Under the pieces are notes generated by a model. The model was not told the origin of the DNA and ran no database searches. It worked only from the letters and a program-made list of their open reading frames with translations. From a virus (Duplodnaviria > Caudoviricetes): 64,000 nt of DNA. The stretch lies in IMG/VR virus record IMGVR_UViG_3300027571_000004, positions 28,290 through 92,289 of that record, one strand, 5' to 3'. The translations under genes and the position numbers were made by a program. Shown piece by piece: positions 1,098 through 58,725 of the stretch (its first letter is position 1; the number at the start of each line of letters is the position of its first letter).

Positions 1098-4000
1098 ATG
1101 TCTAACCCATCAAACCTATATGCTGAAAAGATTTTTGCTGAACATCCAGCAACTCTTTGGGCTTTAGACGATCAGGTAGACTATCTTTCCTTAGTCTCAG
1201 AAGAAGAAAGAACTGTTTCTTCCTGGAAAGATATATCAGGAAACTCACTTGGTCTTTCTGCTGTAACTGTTACAGATGTTCTTGACCAGCCATTTCCTAC
1301 CAGTAATGTTACAAAGATAACAGGAGAAATTCCTACTGGAGACAGCGGTGAAATTACCTGCATCAGTCTTCCTATTAAAAAATTTACACAGTTTGATTAT
1401 GAATTAGGAACCTTTGCTATTGGTGGATACTTTTATGCAAAAAGTCCTTTCATTACTGGAATCCATATCGGCTATGAGTATCGTGATGACACAAGTGGAG
1501 AGAAAATAACAAAGTTAAAATACTTTGAAACATTAGTATCAAACGAATGGATATTTCTTTCAGAAACTTTTCAAGTTCCACTAGAAGACTCTGAAATGAG
1601 TATAGTTATAAAGATAAATTATCGTGCAGGATCTGAGGTAGAGGAAGATTATGTATTTTTTACAAACGGAATTACATTGGGACAATGGTCAGAAGAATTT
1701 TGTGCAACCTCTCTAGGATCAACAAAAACATTACTTCCTTCATCAATCGCCATTGAATCCCCAACAACGTTTTCGATTGAAGCAAAGTCTTACGGATTAC
1801 AGGAAAATCCTGGATACTATATTATTAACAACAACTTTTTACTGGCAAAAAATAGCGGGATCCCCATGGTTTATGGTGCTTCTAATGTAACAGTCTTATC
1901 TCCCAACCCAGATCCATTTTATCCTTCATTGATAATTCCAGGACTAGGATTTTTAAATAAAGAAGGTCAATACAATAGTTACACTCTTGAGTTTTGGATA
2001 AGAATAAACTCAGACGCTACTCTAGTACCACTAAGAATTGTTGGCCCCATAGGTTCATCCGATGGAATATATGTTGATGGTCCATTTCTAAAGTTAAAAA
2101 TTGGTAACACATCTGGTTCATATTTTATTGGTGAATGGACTAGACCAATGCTAGTAGACTTAGTAATAAAAAATGATTCTGCAAATTTGTTAATAAATGG
2201 AGAGTCCGTAATATCTCTTTCCTATACAACTTCTGACCTTGACCTTCCCTACAAATTAAATAATGGTAAAAATCAAGACTGGGTAGGTTTTTATGCCTGG
2301 GAAAATGTTGCACCAATAGAGATTGATTGTGTTGCAATATATACATATGAAGTTCCTTCTATCGTAGCAAAAAGAAGGTTTGTTTATGGTCAGGGTGTAG
2401 AATTTCCAGAAGGTATTAATCAAGCGTATAGCGGATCTTCTATATATATAGATTATCCCTTTGCAGACTATACAAACAATTATTCTTATCCAAATATTGG
2501 CAAATGGCAACAGGGTAAACTAAACAATCTATCTGCTGCTAACAATGTTCTATCTACACCAGACTATGAATTGCCAGAAATATACTTATCTAATTCAGAC
2601 ACCGTATCTATATATGCAGATAACGATCTTGTGCAACAAGAAAATGATTTGTTCTTTTCTTTTAGGCCATCTACCACATGGGCACAGCAACATGGATACT
2701 TGTTATTCAGTAATTTAAATATGTTGCGTGAAAAGGTAAGATCTTTTTATGGAACATTTAAAGTAAAAAGTTTGTCAACAAGTGACGAAGTATTATTTTT
2801 AATAAAGTCAGGTGTTACAACAAATACTTTATCTATTGTTCTTAATAATACAACTATCAACTATGTTTTAAACTATAATGGACAAGAGTCAGTGATTCAT
2901 TCTTCATACAATGTTTATCCTGGAGAACCTTTTTCTGTTGCTATGGATCTAGACTTGTTCTCTGCTAATTTTGGCGGAGACGTAGAATCTTTTTTAGCAA
3001 ACTTTAACAGCCTAGAACTATATGTTGGTGGAAAAAGCAATCTTTCAAATACTTTTAGTGGTAACATCTATAACATTGGATTCTGTAACGAGTCAAATCA
3101 CTCAAAGATACAAGATCTTTTTAACGAAATCGGAACTTCAAAAGACTACGAAAACCTTTTTAACAACTATACAAATTCAGTAAATCATGATGGAGGAAAC
3201 TCTTATTTTGGAACAGAGGGGTGGTACTATAACTCAGAGAACGAACTTCAGAGAGTCGGATCTTCACAGTTCTGGGACTACTACCTTGACGGAGGAAACC
3301 CAGGGTCTTACTCAACATTTAAATTTAAAGATCACACAGCAAGTTATACACTAAGGCCAAAGGTTTATTTTGAGGAATACTCATTAGACATAGATGTTAG
3401 TTGCTCTTGGGAAGATTATGTCCCACTTACTTATTTTTCTCAATATGTAAAAGATGCTCGTGGCGATGACTATTATGATTTAGACTTTATTCAGTTTAAC
3501 ATCAACTATCCTTCTCCATCAAAGTTTTTAGAAGAAGAGCAAACTGGCTCTTGGACATACGCAGAACTTCAGAATGATTACTCAAACCCAATTCAAAGAA
3601 CTTATGATTCACTAGACAATCAACTTTTTACTGGTTATATGGACTACTCTGACTTAAAGAATAAATCAACCAAAAACTATAAATATAATACATCTTTTTC
3701 TTTGGTTAGGTCTTATGTTACATTTCAGTATATTGAGTCAGGGGCAAATGCGGTAGATGGGTATTTTATTAATAAAGAACTTCCACCAAAAGAAGGAGTC
3801 GTTAATCCAGGGAATAACTGGATGAATACAAAATATGAGGTTATAAATAATATGATTATCTATCCACCCTCTACAGCAGATACAAAAGATTTGGCCATCG
3901 TTACTCACCTTGAGTTTTTAGTTCCTGGAATCTTAAGAAATAAAGTCTCAATTAAAAGCCTTGAGTATGCGTCTCAATCATTTAATGAGTCATCCCCAAA

Positions 4001-5288: not shown

Positions 5289-6898
5289 TGTCAGAAGATA
5301 GACAAGAGTATGTTAGAATTAAAATGGATGACACTCCAGAAGAAATAAATGTCTTTCAAGCACAAGATCCATTCAACAAAACTTGGGATGAACTAAAAGA
5401 TTTATCTGGACTAGACAACAACTTTAAACGCAGAACCTCCAGGGTAGTTAAATCTGAATCCATAGAGATGGGAAAAGTAGATGCATCTCAAGGATACATT
5501 GACTCTGCTCGTGCAGTAAACACTGGTATTAATGGAACAGCATCTAAAGAGATTAACCCAGGATTAATTTATCGTAATGGCTATGGCCTGTTTGATGTAA
5601 TTACACCACCATGGAACTTGTACGAATTAGCAAACTACTACGACACATCATTTGCAAACCATGCAGCCATTGACGCCAAGGTAGAAAACATTGTAGGACT
5701 TGGATACGATTTCAAGATAGCAGCAAGAACTATGCTTAAGTTAGAGGGATCTGAAGCAAAAGCAGCAGAGGCTGCAAGAAAAAGAATTGAAAGAGCCAAG
5801 ATTGAACTTCGTGATTGGCTAGAGTCTTTAAATAATGATGATTCATTTACATCAAGCATGGAAAAAGTATTTACTGATCTTCAGGCAACTGGTAATGCCT
5901 ACCTTGAAGTTGGAAGAACCGTAACAGGAGACATTGGATATGTTGGACATATTCCATCAACAACTATGCGTGTTCGCAGACTTCGTGATGGTTACGTACA
6001 GGTTATTGGAAACAAGGTTGTATACTTCCGTAACTTTGGAGCAACGAATCCTAATCCACTTGGAACGGACCCAAGACCAAATGAGATTATTCACTTTAAA
6101 GAATACTCACCTCTAAATACATTCTATGGAGTTCCAGATATTCTTTCTGCAATTAATGCTCTTTATGGTGATGCTTTGGCTTCACAATACAACATTGATT
6201 TCTTTAGCAACAAAGCAGTCCCAAGATATGTAGTAACTCTTAAGGGTGCAAAGTTATCTCCAGAAGCAGAAGACAAGATGTTTAGATTCTTGCAGACTGG
6301 ACTCAAAGGACAAAACCACAGAACATTATATATTCCTTTGCCAGCCGACTCAGACACAAACAAGGTTGAATTTAAAATGGAGCCTATTGAAAACGGTATC
6401 CAAGAAGGATCATTTAGAGACTACCGCAAGTCTAATCGTGATGATATTCTTGTTGCTCACCAAGTTCCTCTTTCAAAGTTAGGTGGATCAGATTCAGCAG
6501 CAATTGCTGCAGCCCTAGCACAGGATAGAACTTTCAAGGAGCAGGTAGCAAGACCAGCACAACGTAATCTTGAAAAGATGATTAATAAGATAGTTCGTGA
6601 AAAGACAGACATTGTTGATTTTAAGTTTAATGAACTTACCCTTACAGATGAAATCGCTCAATCTCAAATTTTAGAACGATACATTAAGACACAGATTATG
6701 GTTCCTAATGAAGCAAGAGAAGTTCTAGGTTTACCACAAAGAGATGGAGGAAACGAGCCTTTCCAACCTAAGCCACAAGATACTGCAAATGACAACGCAG
6801 ATCGTGCACGGGATGGAGAAAGACTAAACAACCAATCCGATGGGTCTGCTACAGTAAGTGGTAGAAATCCCAAAGGTGAAGGACGAGCATCTCAATAG
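5288..6898 (+). CDS. Portal protein
   Basis: 536 aa with TGNAYLEV, EIIHFK, YGVP and PNEAREVLGLP motifs typical of HK97/PBSX-type portals; precedes protease and capsid genes. Confidence 0.92.
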   Translation: MSEDRQEYVRIKMDDTPEEINVFQAQDPFNKTWDELKDLSGLDNNFKRRTSRVVKSESIEMGKVDASQGYIDSARAVNTGINGTASKEINPGLIYRNGYGLFDVITPPWNLYELANYYDTSFANHAAIDAKVENIVGLGYDFKIAARTMLKLEGSEAKAAEAARKRIERAKIELRDWLESLNNDDSFTSSMEKVFTDLQATGNAYLEVGRTVTGDIGYVGHIPSTTMRVRRLRDGYVQVIGNKVVYFRNFGATNPNPLGTDPRPNEIIHFKEYSPLNTFYGVPDILSAINALYGDALASQYNIDFFSNKAVPRYVVTLKGAKLSPEAEDKMFRFLQTGLKGQNHRTLYIPLPADSDTNKVEFKMEPIENGIQEGSFRDYRKSNRDDILVAHQVPLSKLGGSDSAAIAAALAQDRTFKEQVARPAQRNLEKMINKIVREKTDIVDFKFNELTLTDEIAQSQILERYIKTQIMVPNEAREVLGLPQRDGGNEPFQPKPQDTANDNADRARDGERLNNQSDGSATVSGRNPKGEGRASQ

Positions 6899-53754: not shown

Positions 53755-53828
53755 GGTCACGTAGTTCAGTTGGTTAGAACGCCACCCTGTCACGGTGGAG
53801 GTCGACGGTTCGAGTCCGTTCGTGATCG
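53755..53828 (+). tRNA. tRNA-Asp (GTC)
   Basis: Acceptor GGTCACG/CGTGATC; anticodon arm CCACC-CTGTCAC-GGTGG; TTCGAGT loop; G73; no encoded CCA. Confidence 0.93.
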
Positions 53829-53852
53829 CAAATAAAGTGATATGATTGATAT

Positions 53853-53936
53853 GCTCTGCACGGGACCTTAGTGATGGATTAGTTACCCATTGGATAGAGA
53901 CCGTGGCGCAAGTCAGGTGAATTGCCTGTGCAGAGC
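53853..53936 (+). ncRNA. Candidate structured ncRNA, about 84 nt, three-way junction
   Basis: 12-bp closing stem GCTCTGCACGGG/CCTGTGCAGAGC; two internal hairpins, one with a GCAA tetraloop; starts 6 nt after TGATATGAT (-10). Confidence 0.65.
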
Positions 53937-53964
53937 CTCAACATTTAGCGGTATAATAATATTA

Positions 53965-54237
53965 ATGACTGACAAAGAGTTAGTATTATATAACAAACAA
54001 CAGTTTAAAAAAAGACTGTTAGATATTAAAGAGGCGTCTGGGTGTGTTGATTGTGGTCTTAAAAATCACATTGTCTTAGACTTTGATCACCTTCATGATA
54101 AAAAATATAACATTTCAAGAATGATTCATGACGGATTTTCTTGGGCAGCAATTAAAAAAGAGATTGCAAAATGTGAAGTAGTTTGTGCTAACTGTCATAG
54201 GATTAGAACTCATGACAGATTGACAGGTCAGGCTTAG
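53965..54237 (+). CDS. HNH endonuclease
   Basis: CVDCG, LDFDH, CEVVCANCHRIRTH; leaderless start 7 nt after TATAAT (53952-53957). Confidence 0.85.
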   Translation: MTDKELVLYNKQQFKKRLLDIKEASGCVDCGLKNHIVLDFDHLHDKKYNISRMIHDGFSWAAIKKEIAKCEVVCANCHRIRTHDRLTGQA

Positions 54238-54249
54238 TTCTGATATAAT
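54220..54249 (+). promoter_or_regulatory. Promoter TTGACA-18-TATAAT (extended TG)
   Basis: TTGACA 54220-54225 and TGATATAAT 54241-54249; upstream of the endolysin. Confidence 0.75.
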
Positions 54250-58437: not shown

Positions 58438-58725
58438 ATGCCTAAGCATGAGTGGAAAGACGATGGACTTTGTTTAGACTATGATACAAACTTATTCTTT
58501 GATAAGTATGAAGAGGATGCATTTCTTAGACCAGCAGTAGATAAACTTTGTTCCACGTGTCCAGTTTCAAATACTTGCTTTGCAGTGGGCATATCTCAAA
58601 AAGAATGGGGAGTGTGGGGAGGAGTATTCCTTGAAAGTGGTATAATATCTAAGGAGTTTAATAATCATAAGACTAAAGAGGCCTGGGCAAATACTTGGGA
58701 AGCACTAACAATAGAAAAAGGATAA
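58438..58725 (+). CDS. whiB: WhiB-family Fe-S transcription factor
   Basis: C..FF..CSTCPVSNTC four-Cys pattern and WGVWGG turn. Confidence 0.92.
   Translation: MPKHEWKDDGLCLDYDTNLFFDKYEEDAFLRPAVDKLCSTCPVSNTCFAVGISQKEWGVWGGVFLESGIISKEFNNHKTKEAWANTWEALTIEKG

What the first reader, a model, noticed from the sequence alone, without database searches (positions are those of the whole stretch)
53838..53940. Promoter-delimited 84-nt structured RNA between the tRNA pair and an HNH gene
Seen: TGATATGAT (extended -10) ends at 53846. Six nt later, the same spacing as the leaderless genes in this window, a 12-bp stem begins (53853-53864 pairing 53925-53936, one G-U). It encloses hairpin TGATGG/CCATTG (53872-53892) and hairpin ACC(G)TGGC-GCAA-GTCA-GGT (53900-53918, GNRA tetraloop), with purine-rich linkers GATAGAG and GAATTG. 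ACCT 53865-53868 can compete for AGGT. The element is GC-rich in an AT-rich genome and has no tRNA T-loop and no U-tract. The HNH gene has its own promoter, so this is not its leader. Inference: a free-standing small RNA that I cannot assign to a known family (tRNA/Y-RNA-like decoy, ribozyme-like junction or protein-binding RNA).
Basis: partly seen in the sequence, partly recalled or inferred. Interest (0 to 1): 0.8.

Follow-up and report, generated by a model that had tools for sequence, protein, structure and literature searches.

The report
New phage small RNA beside HNH gene
This is a real, previously uncatalogued folded small RNA gene of uncultured freshwater phages. A selfish DNA-cutting-enzyme (HNH) gene has usually inserted just behind it, much as such genes sit beside tRNA genes in other phages, and what the RNA does is still unknown.

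Summary
Bases 53853-53936 (+) fold into a three-way junction closed by a 12-bp stem (RNAfold z -3.6). A -10 box ends 6 nt upstream.

No Rfam 15 family matches at E<=10, ARAGORN calls no tRNA there, and blastn finds nothing in 50,697 GenBank phage records. The element occurs in well over 200 IMG/VR phage contigs.

On 75 distinct sequences, 9 of 12 closing-stem pairs and 2 of 6 pairs of hairpin 1 show compensatory changes. The loop word UAGUUAC never varies. G-U pairs and model scores (105 versus at most 26 bits) fix the + strand.

Linkage to the 90-aa HNH gene is strong but not obligatory:
- RNA to HNH: 97 of 97 canonical contexts, 63 of 68 in a divergent clade.
- HNH to RNA: 78 of 79.
- Six RNA-only loci keep promoter and fold.
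- One pair of contigs differs only by insertion of HNH plus its promoter behind the RNA.

Best reading: an autonomous small RNA gene with a homing-endonuclease gene parked 3' of it; the two often travel together. Molecular function and a discrete transcript remain unshown.

First readers of this scan noted the same RNA in at least eight other genomes.

The parts
53838..53846 (+). Promoter of the RNA: TGATATGAT (TG-extended -10; hexamer TATGAT 53841-53846)
   Evidence: Sequence. In 96 of 96 related contexts a TANNNT hexamer ends 5-10 nt before the paired start of P1, with different hexamers: TACAAT, TATAAT, TATGAT, TAATAT, TATACT, TAAAAT. Not called by the two-hexamer consensus scan, because there is no -35.
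53853..53936 (+). The structured small RNA (84 nt, three-way junction)
   Evidence: RNAfold z -3.62. Covariance model R1 scores 105.2 bits, E 2e-28, and this is the only hit in the window and in the whole 92-kb record. No Rfam family at E<=10.
53853..53864 (+). P1, 5' strand of the closing stem
   Evidence: 9 of 12 pairs show changes on both sides in 75 distinct sequences, and 95% of cells are paired.
53865..53871 (+). J1/2, ACCUUAG: nearly invariant joiner (CCUU kept; A/G variants in divergent clades)
   Evidence: Alignments A1 and A5.
53872..53892 (+). P2 hairpin. Stem GAUGG/CCAUU plus an outer pair 53872/53892. The loop is 53878-53886, and its last 7 nt, UAGUUAC (53880-53886), are the same in all 75 distinct sequences.
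   Evidence: pair 24-45 takes 6 standard pair types, pair 26-43 changes A-U to G-C once, two pairs switch G-C/G-U, and 94.9% of cells are paired. Loop invariance read.
53893..53899 (+). J2/3, a variable A/U-rich joiner. It varies in length and is cut to a few bases in the shortest (RNA-only) variants.
53900..53918 (+). P3 hairpin (GCAA loop here). The 5' strand ACCGUGGC is semi-conserved; the 3' strand and loop differ between subtypes.
   Evidence: RNAfold predicts a hairpin at this place in all 31 distinct inner segments examined, but in different registers. The type-A pairing is not kept in other types: 73% of cells paired.
53919..53924 (+). J3/1, GAAUUG joiner (GAWUNR-like; missing in one divergent member, L354)
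53925..53936 (+). P1, 3' strand of the closing stem
53950..53957 (+). Promoter of the HNH gene (GGTATAAT). Its -10 ends 7 nt before the ATG, which implies a leaderless mRNA.
   Evidence: Sequence. The same arrangement is seen in relatives. This promoter and the HNH ORF together form the ~330-nt insertion in L504 relative to L591.
53965..54237 (+). 90-aa HNH nuclease gene, read as a free-standing homing-endonuclease gene inserted 3' of the RNA gene
   Evidence: phrog_2255 E 2e-22 and phrog_3106 E 1e-19. Invariant CxxC...DFDH...N...CxxCH pattern in 22 aligned sequences. Best GenBank relatives are actinophage HNH genes inside tRNA clusters. Pfam HNH only E 0.11, and fold matches are weak.

Best explanation
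The element is a gene for a new family of phage small RNAs.

How it is made (inferred): transcription starts about 7 nt after its own -10 box, at the first base of the closing stem P1. P1 (11-12 bp) pairs the 5' and 3' ends into a compact three-way junction, which should resist exonucleases.

What it displays (shown): two sequence-invariant single-stranded words, the joiner CCUU(A/G)G and the hairpin-loop word UAGUUAC. The second hairpin and the A/U-rich joiner are free to vary.

How it acts (inferred): the RNA works in trans. The invariant words bind a conserved partner, more likely a protein than a nucleic acid, and the partner is not the neighbouring HNH protein alone.

The HNH gene: it is a free-standing homing-endonuclease gene that has settled, with its own promoter, in the gap just 3' of this RNA gene. 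This parallels related HNH genes that sit among tRNA genes in cultured actinophages. That the enzyme uses the conserved DNA of the RNA gene as its landmark is inference.

Once joined, RNA and HNH are co-inherited and appear together in several genomic contexts.

Shown versus inferred:
- Shown: the fold, the strand, the promoter geometry, the linkage counts and the HNH insertion polymorphism.
- Inferred: the transcript ends, action in trans, the partner, and the homing target.

How sure I am of each layer (my estimates):
- That this is a real, selected structured RNA family: about 0.9.
- That it is autonomous and the HNH gene is an endonuclease parked beside it: about 0.6.
- That it is a trans-acting binder of a conserved partner: about 0.4.
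For: RNA-level selection.
- On 76 sequences (75 distinct), P1 has 9 of 12 pairs with compensatory changes and P2 has 2 of 6. 95% of cells are paired, against 36-50% when the partners are slid.
- 0 of 500 shuffles reach the observed value on four of five measures.
- Frequent G-U pairs, for example 69 of 75 at the P2 closing pair, would be mismatches on the other strand.
- Model R1 scores 45-112 bits on the + strand and at most 26 bits on the - strand.

Promoter.
- A TANNNT hexamer ends 5-10 nt before P1 in 96 of 96 contexts, with six or more different hexamers.

Autonomy from HNH.
- In the 'CCUUGG' clade, 5 of 68 judgeable contexts have no HNH within 1.5 kb downstream (L487, L519, L557, L559, L591). 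L467 from metagenomes is a sixth.
- All six keep the -10 box and a full P1, and score 46-63 bits, E<=7e-11.
- L504 (hsp20|RNA|HNH|420-aa gene) and L591 (hsp20|RNA|420-aa gene) align through both flanks and the RNA. They differ only by HNH plus its promoter.
- In L166 a different, 169-aa HNH (52% identical core) follows a near-identical RNA.
- In 5 of 78 HNH-ascertained loci another gene lies between RNA and HNH. In the L264-type locus examined it is a glutathione-peroxidase-like gene.

Homing-endonuclease character.
- The RNA+HNH pair is present or absent between the same flanking genes. L173 against L107 (hsp20 and endolysin) is one case. Of 74 judgeable endolysin loci, 60 lack both and 13 have both.
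- Contexts differ: tRNA within 400 nt upstream in 6 of 105, endolysin downstream in 32 of 81, S8 protease upstream in 16 of 94.
- The nearest GenBank relatives of the HNH lie inside tRNA clusters (ArcherS7 gp155, Tribute gp97).
- Precedent: the SegB homing endonuclease is significantly co-located with phage tRNA genes (PMC13096335; abstract and section 10 read).
Against: - No discrete transcript is shown. In four metatranscriptome runs the element lies on contigs that also carry its flanks. One is a 373-nt contig covering 53605-53977; another is a 753-nt contig running through RNA and HNH. Depth is low, 2.8-17. DNA carry-over or read-through cannot be excluded.
- In the canonical clade no RNA-only locus was seen (0 of 97), and 78 of 79 HNH genes have the RNA. 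A functional tie to HNH is therefore not excluded.
- Where the pair is absent, both are absent together. The RNA gene therefore cannot be the homing target in those genomes.
- The partner of the invariant words is unknown. No host counterpart turned up in 185,579 species genomes by exact core pattern, nor by model R1 in 153 genomes.
- Much of the core's invariance in the first sample was imposed by the search pattern. Only the HNH-ascertained sample is free of that bias.
Confidence: 0.5

Rival explanations
1. The RNA is the working partner of the 90-aa HNH protein. Either it is an RNA subunit or specificity factor for a nuclease that lacks a DNA-binding domain, or it is an RNA inhibitor ('antitoxin') that holds the nuclease in check.
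For: - The linkage is nearly reciprocal. RNA to HNH is 97 of 97 in the canonical clade and 63 of 68 in the second clade. HNH to RNA is 78 of 79.
- Strand and order are the same in all 160 contexts where an HNH was scored (97 + 63), because only same-strand downstream hits were counted.
- Separate promoters would allow an excess of RNA.
- The pairing survives insertion of another gene between them.
- The HNH is only the nuclease core: it matches residues 96-172 of a 211-residue PHROG profile.
Against: - Six RNA-only loci have intact promoter and fold.
- One HNH-only locus exists, L296, with no RNA within 1,500 nt upstream.
- A near-identical RNA sits beside a different, longer HNH in L166.
- Small HNH relatives in cultured phages have no such RNA.
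- No segment varies in the way a guide would.
- Nothing tested here bears on binding.
Confidence: 0.15
2. The element acts in cis on transcription. It would be an insulator or terminator that shields the next, leaderless gene from upstream read-through, or a tandem-promoter device that sets how much of the downstream gene is made.
For: - A stable stem is followed by a T-rich tail: a run of 3-4 T in 79 of 96 contexts, mean 5.3 T in 10 nt.
- In the contexts read, a promoter for a leaderless gene lies a short distance 3' of P1, whatever that gene is: HNH, peroxidase-like or the 420-aa gene.
- Other structured leaders before phage nuclease genes were reported earlier in this scan.
Against: - It has its own promoter placed to start exactly at the stem. 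That is pointless for a terminator of upstream genes.
- About 30 nt of strictly conserved single-stranded sequence are not needed for termination.
- The window copy has no T-run, and the terminator scan calls nothing here.
- There is no complementarity to the spacer or to the HNH 5' end beyond shuffles: mean z 0.13 over 26 cassettes.
- The downstream genes have no ribosome-binding site to mask.
Confidence: 0.12
3. A specific version of the trans-acting reading: hairpin 1 mimics an anticodon arm and decoys a tRNA-directed host enzyme or defence nuclease. The homing endonuclease spreads this counter-defence cargo.
For: - The invariant loop word reads A-GUU-A-C. The window's own tRNA-Asn anticodon loop reads U-GUU-A-A.
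- The RNA sits at the 3' end of tRNA clusters in 6 of 105 contexts.
- HNH relatives live in tRNA clusters.
- Precedent: a homing endonuclease amplifies phage tRNA and other anti-defence loci (PMC13096335, abstract).
Against: - The loop has 9-10 nt, not 7.
- The base at the position of the universal U before the anticodon is A.
- There is no tRNA-like score.
- The resemblance is four to five letters and could be chance.
- No defence system is implicated by any search.
Confidence: 0.08
4. The conserved sequence is a DNA-level site only (recognition, nicking or recombination site of the HNH enzyme, or a cruciform) and makes no functional RNA.
For: - It is an inverted repeat beside a nuclease gene.
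- Homing enzymes need conserved DNA targets.
- No discrete transcript was seen.
Against: - G-U pairs are kept on one strand only.
- There is a large score gap between strands.
- The internal hairpins have compensatory changes.
- The -10 box is kept at fixed spacing.
- The element persists without HNH.
Confidence: 0.05

Closest known systems
Free-standing homing-endonuclease genes beside phage stable-RNA genes. Example: SegB in the tRNA region of T4/T6-like phages (PMC13096335; abstract and section 10 read).
   Same: - A nuclease gene with its own expression signals sits next to a small, highly conserved RNA gene and is co-inherited with it.
- It is polymorphic between related phages.
- The nearest cultured relatives of this HNH lie inside tRNA clusters.
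   Different: - The RNA here is not a tRNA and belongs to no catalogued family.
- The enzyme is HNH. From recall, SegB is of the GIY-YIG type.
- Cleavage and homing are untested here.
int-alpA RNA motif (Rfam RF02996) and the related leader RNAs before phage nuclease genes reported earlier in this scan
   Same: A small three-armed RNA found directly upstream of selfish nuclease genes of uncultured phages.
   Different: - No match to RF02996 or any other family at E<=10.
- Those leaders pair a loop with the ribosome-binding site. This HNH gene has none and has its own promoter.
- No complementarity was found.
- This RNA also exists without a nuclease gene.
HEARO / IscB omega-RNA (Rfam, 'HNH endonuclease-associated RNA and ORF')
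   Same: A structured RNA encoded just upstream of, and on the same strand as, an HNH-containing protein.
   Different: - No Rfam hit.
- The protein is 90 aa and matches only an HNH core. From recall, IscB carries a RuvC domain and is several times longer, and its RNA is about three times longer with a guide segment.
- The IscB HNH appears only as a weak fold match, Z 3.2.
Type III toxin-antitoxin loci (ToxIN type)
   Same: RNA gene first, then a stem with a T-rich tail, then a gene for a potentially toxic nuclease.
   Different: - From recall, type III antitoxins are tandem repeats processed by an endoribonuclease toxin. Here there is a single copy per genome, a second promoter, and a DNase-type fold.
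- RNA-only and HNH-only loci both exist.
Bacterial Y RNAs (YrlA) and other stable RNAs closed by a long terminal stem
   Same: The 5' and 3' ends are paired in a long stem that closes a small multi-helix module. Size is tRNA-like. Some are phage-encoded (recall).
   Different: - No Rfam Y RNA-type hit at E<=10.
- No T-loop-like arm.
- No Ro/Rsr gene was looked for.

Membership tests
tRNA (Rfam RF00005) or tRNA pseudogene | Cloverleaf recognised by ARAGORN or the tRNA covariance model | tested here: not met
   ARAGORN finds only the two neighbouring tRNAs. RF00005 matches only those, even at E<=10 on 53780-54000.
tRNA (Rfam RF00005) or tRNA pseudogene | Seven-nucleotide anticodon loop and a T arm next to the 3' acceptor strand | tested here: not met
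   The P2 loop has 9-10 nt. The 12-bp stem is formed directly by the two ends, with no T arm.
Any Rfam 15 family (hammerhead, twister, pistol, hatchet, riboswitches, Y RNA, 6S, SRP, int-alpA, HEARO) | Covariance-model match | tested here: not met
   No match at gathering score in the 64-kb window. At E<=10 on 221 nt there are only two spurious rows: HPnc0260 on the other strand, and snoZ278 at 11.7 bits.
int-alpA-like leader of nuclease genes | A loop complementary to the ribosome-binding site or start region of the downstream nuclease gene | tested here: not met
   RNAduplex of the RNA core against the spacer plus the first 60 nt of HNH: mean z 0.13 over the 26 cassettes tested of 87. The gene has no Shine-Dalgarno sequence.
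Intrinsic (rho-independent) terminator | G+C-rich hairpin with a short loop, directly followed by a U tract | tested here: not met
   The stem encloses 60 nt. The window tail has no T-run, and the scan calls no terminator here. In relatives the T-run is 3-4 in 79 of 96 contexts and 2 in 17.
Type III antitoxin RNA | Tandem direct repeats upstream of the toxin gene | tested here: not met
   There is one R1 hit in the window and one in the whole record, and one + strand match in every locus searched.
IscB/HEARO RNA-guided nuclease | A large protein with RuvC and HNH domains next to a long guide-bearing RNA | tested here: not met
   The protein is 90 aa and hits only PHROG HNH families. The RNA is 75-84 nt and shows no variable guide-like end.
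Free-standing homing-endonuclease gene (for the HNH ORF) | Presence/absence polymorphism between otherwise collinear genomes | tested here: met
   L504 against L591: only HNH plus its promoter is inserted. L173 against L107: RNA+HNH are present or absent between hsp20 and endolysin.
Free-standing homing-endonuclease gene (for the HNH ORF) | Site-specific cleavage of the endonuclease-free allele and gene conversion | not testable with these tools
   Needs purified enzyme or co-infection crosses.
HNH (beta-beta-alpha-metal) nuclease fold | Profile or fold match, with catalytic His/Asn/His and zinc-binding cysteines | tested here: inconclusive
   For: PHROG HNH families at E 2e-22, and invariant C27, C30, D41, H42, N49, C74, C77, H78. 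Against: Pfam HNH E 0.11, below its cut-off; no PDB sequence match; Foldseek E>1 and VIA Z<=4.5, with HNH enzymes among unrelated rows.

The most novel reading that the evidence does not exclude
The 84-nt RNA and the 90-aa HNH protein form a two-part nuclease. The RNA supplies the substrate recognition or the control that the domain-less HNH core lacks. This would be by far the smallest RNA-associated DNA nuclease system known, carried as a mobile cassette by phages. The RNA-only loci would then be survivors of HNH loss, or would serve a second role.
Probability: 0.1. Interest if true: 0.9.

Novelty: new variant of a known kind. Interest (0 to 1): 0.62.

Why it matters
It adds a well-supported, widespread structured RNA class that Rfam lacks. 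The class is found only in phage contigs so far: more than 200 IMG/VR contigs, 0 of 185,579 species genomes by its core pattern, and 0 of 50,697 GenBank phage records.

Its invariant 7-nt loop and joiner, clamped by a freely covarying stem, point to a specific molecular partner in an abundant but barely cultured group of freshwater phages.

It also extends the rule that homing endonucleases park beside tRNA genes to a non-tRNA small RNA. The natural set of alleles (RNA+HNH, RNA only, neither) makes homing, co-conversion and the RNA's own role directly testable.

If the RNA turns out to be a counter-defence decoy or a nuclease cofactor, the interest would be much higher.

Tried and rejected
Searches that found nothing:
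- blastn of the element against GenBank phages at E<=10: no match.
- An exact 25-mer of the window's stem plus core in IMG/VR: 0 hits, because the stem differs in relatives.
- The core pattern in one genome per 185,579 species: 0 hits.
- Model R1 in three cultured-phage HNH loci: only short hairpins at 4-12 bits.
- R1 in two MAG genomes and in 151 genomes of one class: none. The tool itself warns that an empty answer shows little.

Expression. Metatranscriptome contigs of runs X1, X2, X3 and X9 cover the RNA only together with its flanks and at low depth, with no ends or strand information. This is neither for nor against a discrete RNA.

Antisense idea. There is no duplex with the HNH start region beyond shuffles.

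HNH fold.
- PDB profile search: no relative.
- Foldseek: E>1.
- VIA-align: Z<=4.5. These matches are only suggestive.

P3.
- The type-A pairing is not conserved in the other types.
- I did not build a register-corrected alignment, so P3 rests on per-sequence folds.

Pattern scans.
- The relaxed pattern in metagenome contigs was mostly chance. Only 11 of 113 loci hold the RNA; the rest include gut and soil contigs. No habitat claim is drawn from them.
- In the second viral scan, 28 of 115 pattern loci gave no nhmmer hit and were dropped.

Host.
- The WhiB protein of the window finds only phage-like contigs binned into MAGs labelled with many phyla, so I make no host call.
- 'Actinophage' rests on WhiB, leaderless-type promoters and the actinophage relatives of the HNH.

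Considered by eye and rejected:
- Hammerhead-like junction: J2/3 is variable.
- Kink-turn or C/D-box-like reading of the GAUGG word: the geometry does not fit.
- An alternative ACCU/AGGU helix: absent from the type-B sequences.
- An N-terminal extension of the HNH ORF through the RNA. The frame is open from TTG 53890 in the window, but an in-frame stop lies upstream of the start in L125 (read by eye).

Literature. Four full-text searches found no description of this RNA. These were listings only, apart from PMC13096335. Supplementary files were not consulted.

It is resent here with that field filled.
Full report
THE OBSERVATION

The window is the 3' 64 kb of a 92,289-base IMG/VR virus record.
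- TGATATGAT ends at 53846.
- G53853 opens a 12-bp stem with 53925-53936, containing one G-U.
- The stem encloses two hairpins (53872-53892 and 53900-53918) joined by ACCUUAG, GAUAGAG and GAAUUG.

RNAfold gives this three-way junction as the minimum-energy fold: -33 kcal/mol, z -3.62. The opposite strand folds less well, z -2.57.

ARAGORN and Rfam see only tRNA-Asn and tRNA-Asp just upstream. At E<=10 no family covers the element in a meaningful way.

The next gene, 53965-54237, encodes a 90-aa protein. It matches PHROG HNH families at E 2e-22 but Pfam HNH only at E 0.11. TATAAT ends 7 nt before its ATG.

RELATIVES AND STRUCTURE

GenBank phages hold nothing similar. Loci fetched through the neighbouring protease and endolysin proteins contained about 20 copies. 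In these the inner 68 nt were identical and the outer stem differed in a paired way.

That gave 142 instances, 109 distinct contexts and 56 distinct RNA sequences. I built covariance model R1 from them. It finds one copy in the window (105 bits) and one in the whole record.

This first sample was chosen by its core sequence. I therefore drew a second sample through the HNH protein:
- 78 of 80 loci have the RNA upstream.
- One of the other two has no room for it.
- The other, L296, truly lacks it within 1.5 kb.
- 17 of the 78 RNAs do not fit the pattern.

On the pooled 76 sequences (75 distinct):
- The closing stem has compensatory changes in 9 of 12 pairs.
- Hairpin 1 has them in 2 of 6 pairs, and two further pairs switch between G-C and G-U.
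- 95% of cells pair, against 36-50% when the partners are slid.
- No shuffle of 500 reaches the observed value on four of five measures. On the fifth, further pair types, 194 of 500 do.

The loop word UAGUUAC is the same in all 75 sequences, and CCUU of the first joiner is kept.

Hairpin 2 is present in every variant according to single-sequence folds. Its 3' strand, loop and register differ between subtypes, so the type-A pairing is not conserved.

G-U pairs and the score gap between strands (45-112 against at most 26 bits) show selection on the + strand as RNA.

PROMOTER AND ENDS

In 96 of 96 contexts a TANNNT hexamer ends 5-10 nt before the paired start of the stem. The distance is 6 nt where the stem has 12 bp and 8 nt where it has 11. 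The start point is therefore fixed relative to the -10 box, and the hexamer itself varies. This matches the spacing between the HNH promoter and its ATG.

After the stem there is a T-rich tail, with a run of 3-4 T in 79 of 96 contexts. It is not a canonical terminator, and the window copy has none.

Expression as a discrete species is not shown. Many metatranscriptome runs hold the core. In the four runs laid, the contigs also carry the flanks and have low depth.

RELATION TO THE HNH GENE

In the canonical sample every judgeable context (97 of 97) has an HNH gene downstream. It is directly adjacent in 94 and lies behind one extra gene in 3.

The surroundings otherwise vary:
- tRNAs within 400 nt upstream in 6 of 105 contexts.
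- Endolysin downstream in 32 of 81.
- S8-like protease upstream in 16 of 94.
- Elsewhere hsp20 or a PstS-like gene upstream.

Between hsp20 and endolysin the RNA+HNH pair is either present or replaced by a 90-nt leader (L173 against L107). Of 74 judgeable endolysin loci, 60 lack both and 13 have both. At that point the pair looked like one obligate cassette.

A scan for a divergent clade (joiner CCUUGG) changed the picture. Of 68 judgeable contexts:
- 62 have HNH adjacent.
- 1 has it further away.
- 5 have none.

A sixth RNA-only locus came from metagenome contigs. All six keep the -10 box and a complete stem, and score 46-63 bits.

In four of the five viral RNA-only loci the RNA is followed after 20-29 nt, including a -10 box, by a 420-aa gene of unknown function (phrog_2859).

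L504 and L591 share hsp20, the RNA and this gene. They differ only by the HNH ORF with its promoter, about 330 nt inserted between the RNA and the next promoter.

Further observations point the same way:
- In L166 a different, 169-aa HNH follows a near-identical RNA at the end of a four-tRNA cluster.
- The closest GenBank relatives of the HNH lie within tRNA clusters of Mycobacterium and Streptomyces phages, without this RNA.

INTERPRETATION

The RNA is a gene in its own right. The HNH gene behaves as a free-standing homing-endonuclease gene that occupies the gap 3' of it, and the two then tend to be inherited together.

This mirrors the documented association of the SegB endonuclease with phage tRNA genes (PMC13096335; abstract and section 10 read).

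That the enzyme recognises the conserved DNA of the RNA gene is inference. So are action in trans and binding of a conserved partner through the invariant loop and joiner.

I found no complementarity to the HNH start region. I found no host counterpart by pattern, nor by model in 153 genomes.

Rivals:
- Functional RNA-HNH partnership. It is kept alive by the near-reciprocal linkage and weakened by the RNA-only loci, the HNH-only locus and the swapped-HNH locus.
- A cis-acting insulator or terminator. It is weakened by the RNA's own promoter and by the conserved single-stranded words.
- An anticodon-arm decoy. The resemblance is only a few letters.
- A DNA-only site. It is contradicted by the strand-specific covariation.

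NOVELTY

- No Rfam 15 family matches and no GenBank phage record matches.
- Four full-text searches found nothing in print.
- First readers of this scan had flagged the same RNA in at least eight other genomes, beside HNH genes or after hsp20. No follow-up on it was shown to me.
- Earlier follow-ups on other phages described int-alpA-like leader RNAs before nuclease genes. This RNA is not one of them.

VERDICT

This is a real new structured RNA family with solid comparative support and an informative natural genetics with a homing endonuclease. Its molecular role is unknown. I score interest at about 0.6.

Noticed in passing
Related loci, e.g. L107 about 3930-3975, L082 about 3545-3580, L255 about 6204-6250. 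None in the window.: A small, abundant pseudoknot-like motif (141 regex hits in the loci held).
- It is a 3-5 bp hairpin with loop CUNRGYAW, followed after a few bases by AAACU(G/A)CYY.
- The last five letters of that word pair with the loop and covary with it (GGGCA/UGCCC, GAGCA/UGCUC, AAGCA/UGCUU, GGGUA/UACCC).
- It sits between a promoter and the endolysin ribosome site, before tRNA-Asn, or just upstream of the RNA-HNH pair.
- The RNA+HNH pair replaces it in the hsp20|endolysin context.
- No Rfam match at E<=10.
   Followed up: partly
L504 about 2775-2808; also L248, L275, L321, L323, L325, L328, L332, L343, L352: In one subclade a ~32-nt G-rich segment (GUCGGGGGAGACAGCGAC...) lies between the usual -10 box and the closing stem. 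The RNA there may carry a 5' extension or use another start.
   Followed up: no
window 54220-54249: A perfect TTGACA-18 nt-TATAAT promoter with TG lies in front of the endolysin gene. Its -35 hexamer lies inside the last codons of the HNH ORF.
   Followed up: no
window 53890-54237: The HNH reading frame is open upstream to a TTG at 53890, inside the RNA. In relative L125 an in-frame stop lies between the RNA and the ATG (read by eye), so I take the ATG at 53965 as the start.
   Followed up: partly
L264 721-1473 (-). The same arrangement may hold in L305, L308, L309, L327, L328, where I checked only the spacing.: A 251-aa glutathione-peroxidase-like gene (Pfam GSHPx, E 5e-10) with its own -10 box is inserted between the RNA and the HNH gene. 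It occurs in two different RNA lineages.
   Followed up: partly
L166 7831-8337 (-): A 169-aa protein with an N-terminal cysteine-rich part and a C-terminal HNH core (52% identical to the window's) follows the RNA at the end of a tRNA-Met/Glu/Ser/Arg cluster.
   Followed up: partly
L394 and L429, about 500-880 nt upstream of the RNA: A second nuclease-like ORF of 121 aa (cysteine pairs and a DHNH...HNC pattern) lies upstream of hsp20 in these contigs.
   Followed up: no
L365-L372 (genome contigs): Relatives of the window's WhiB-like protein (58438-58725) lie on contigs binned into MAGs labelled Chitinophagaceae, Methylococcus, Polynucleobacter, Saccharibacteria, Bifidobacterium and others. These are probably phage contigs mis-binned into the MAGs.
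   Followed up: no
L296 about 1200-1500: This is the only HNH gene of the family found without the RNA. The spacer and promoter before HNH are kept, but an unrelated ORF end replaces the RNA.
   Followed up: partly
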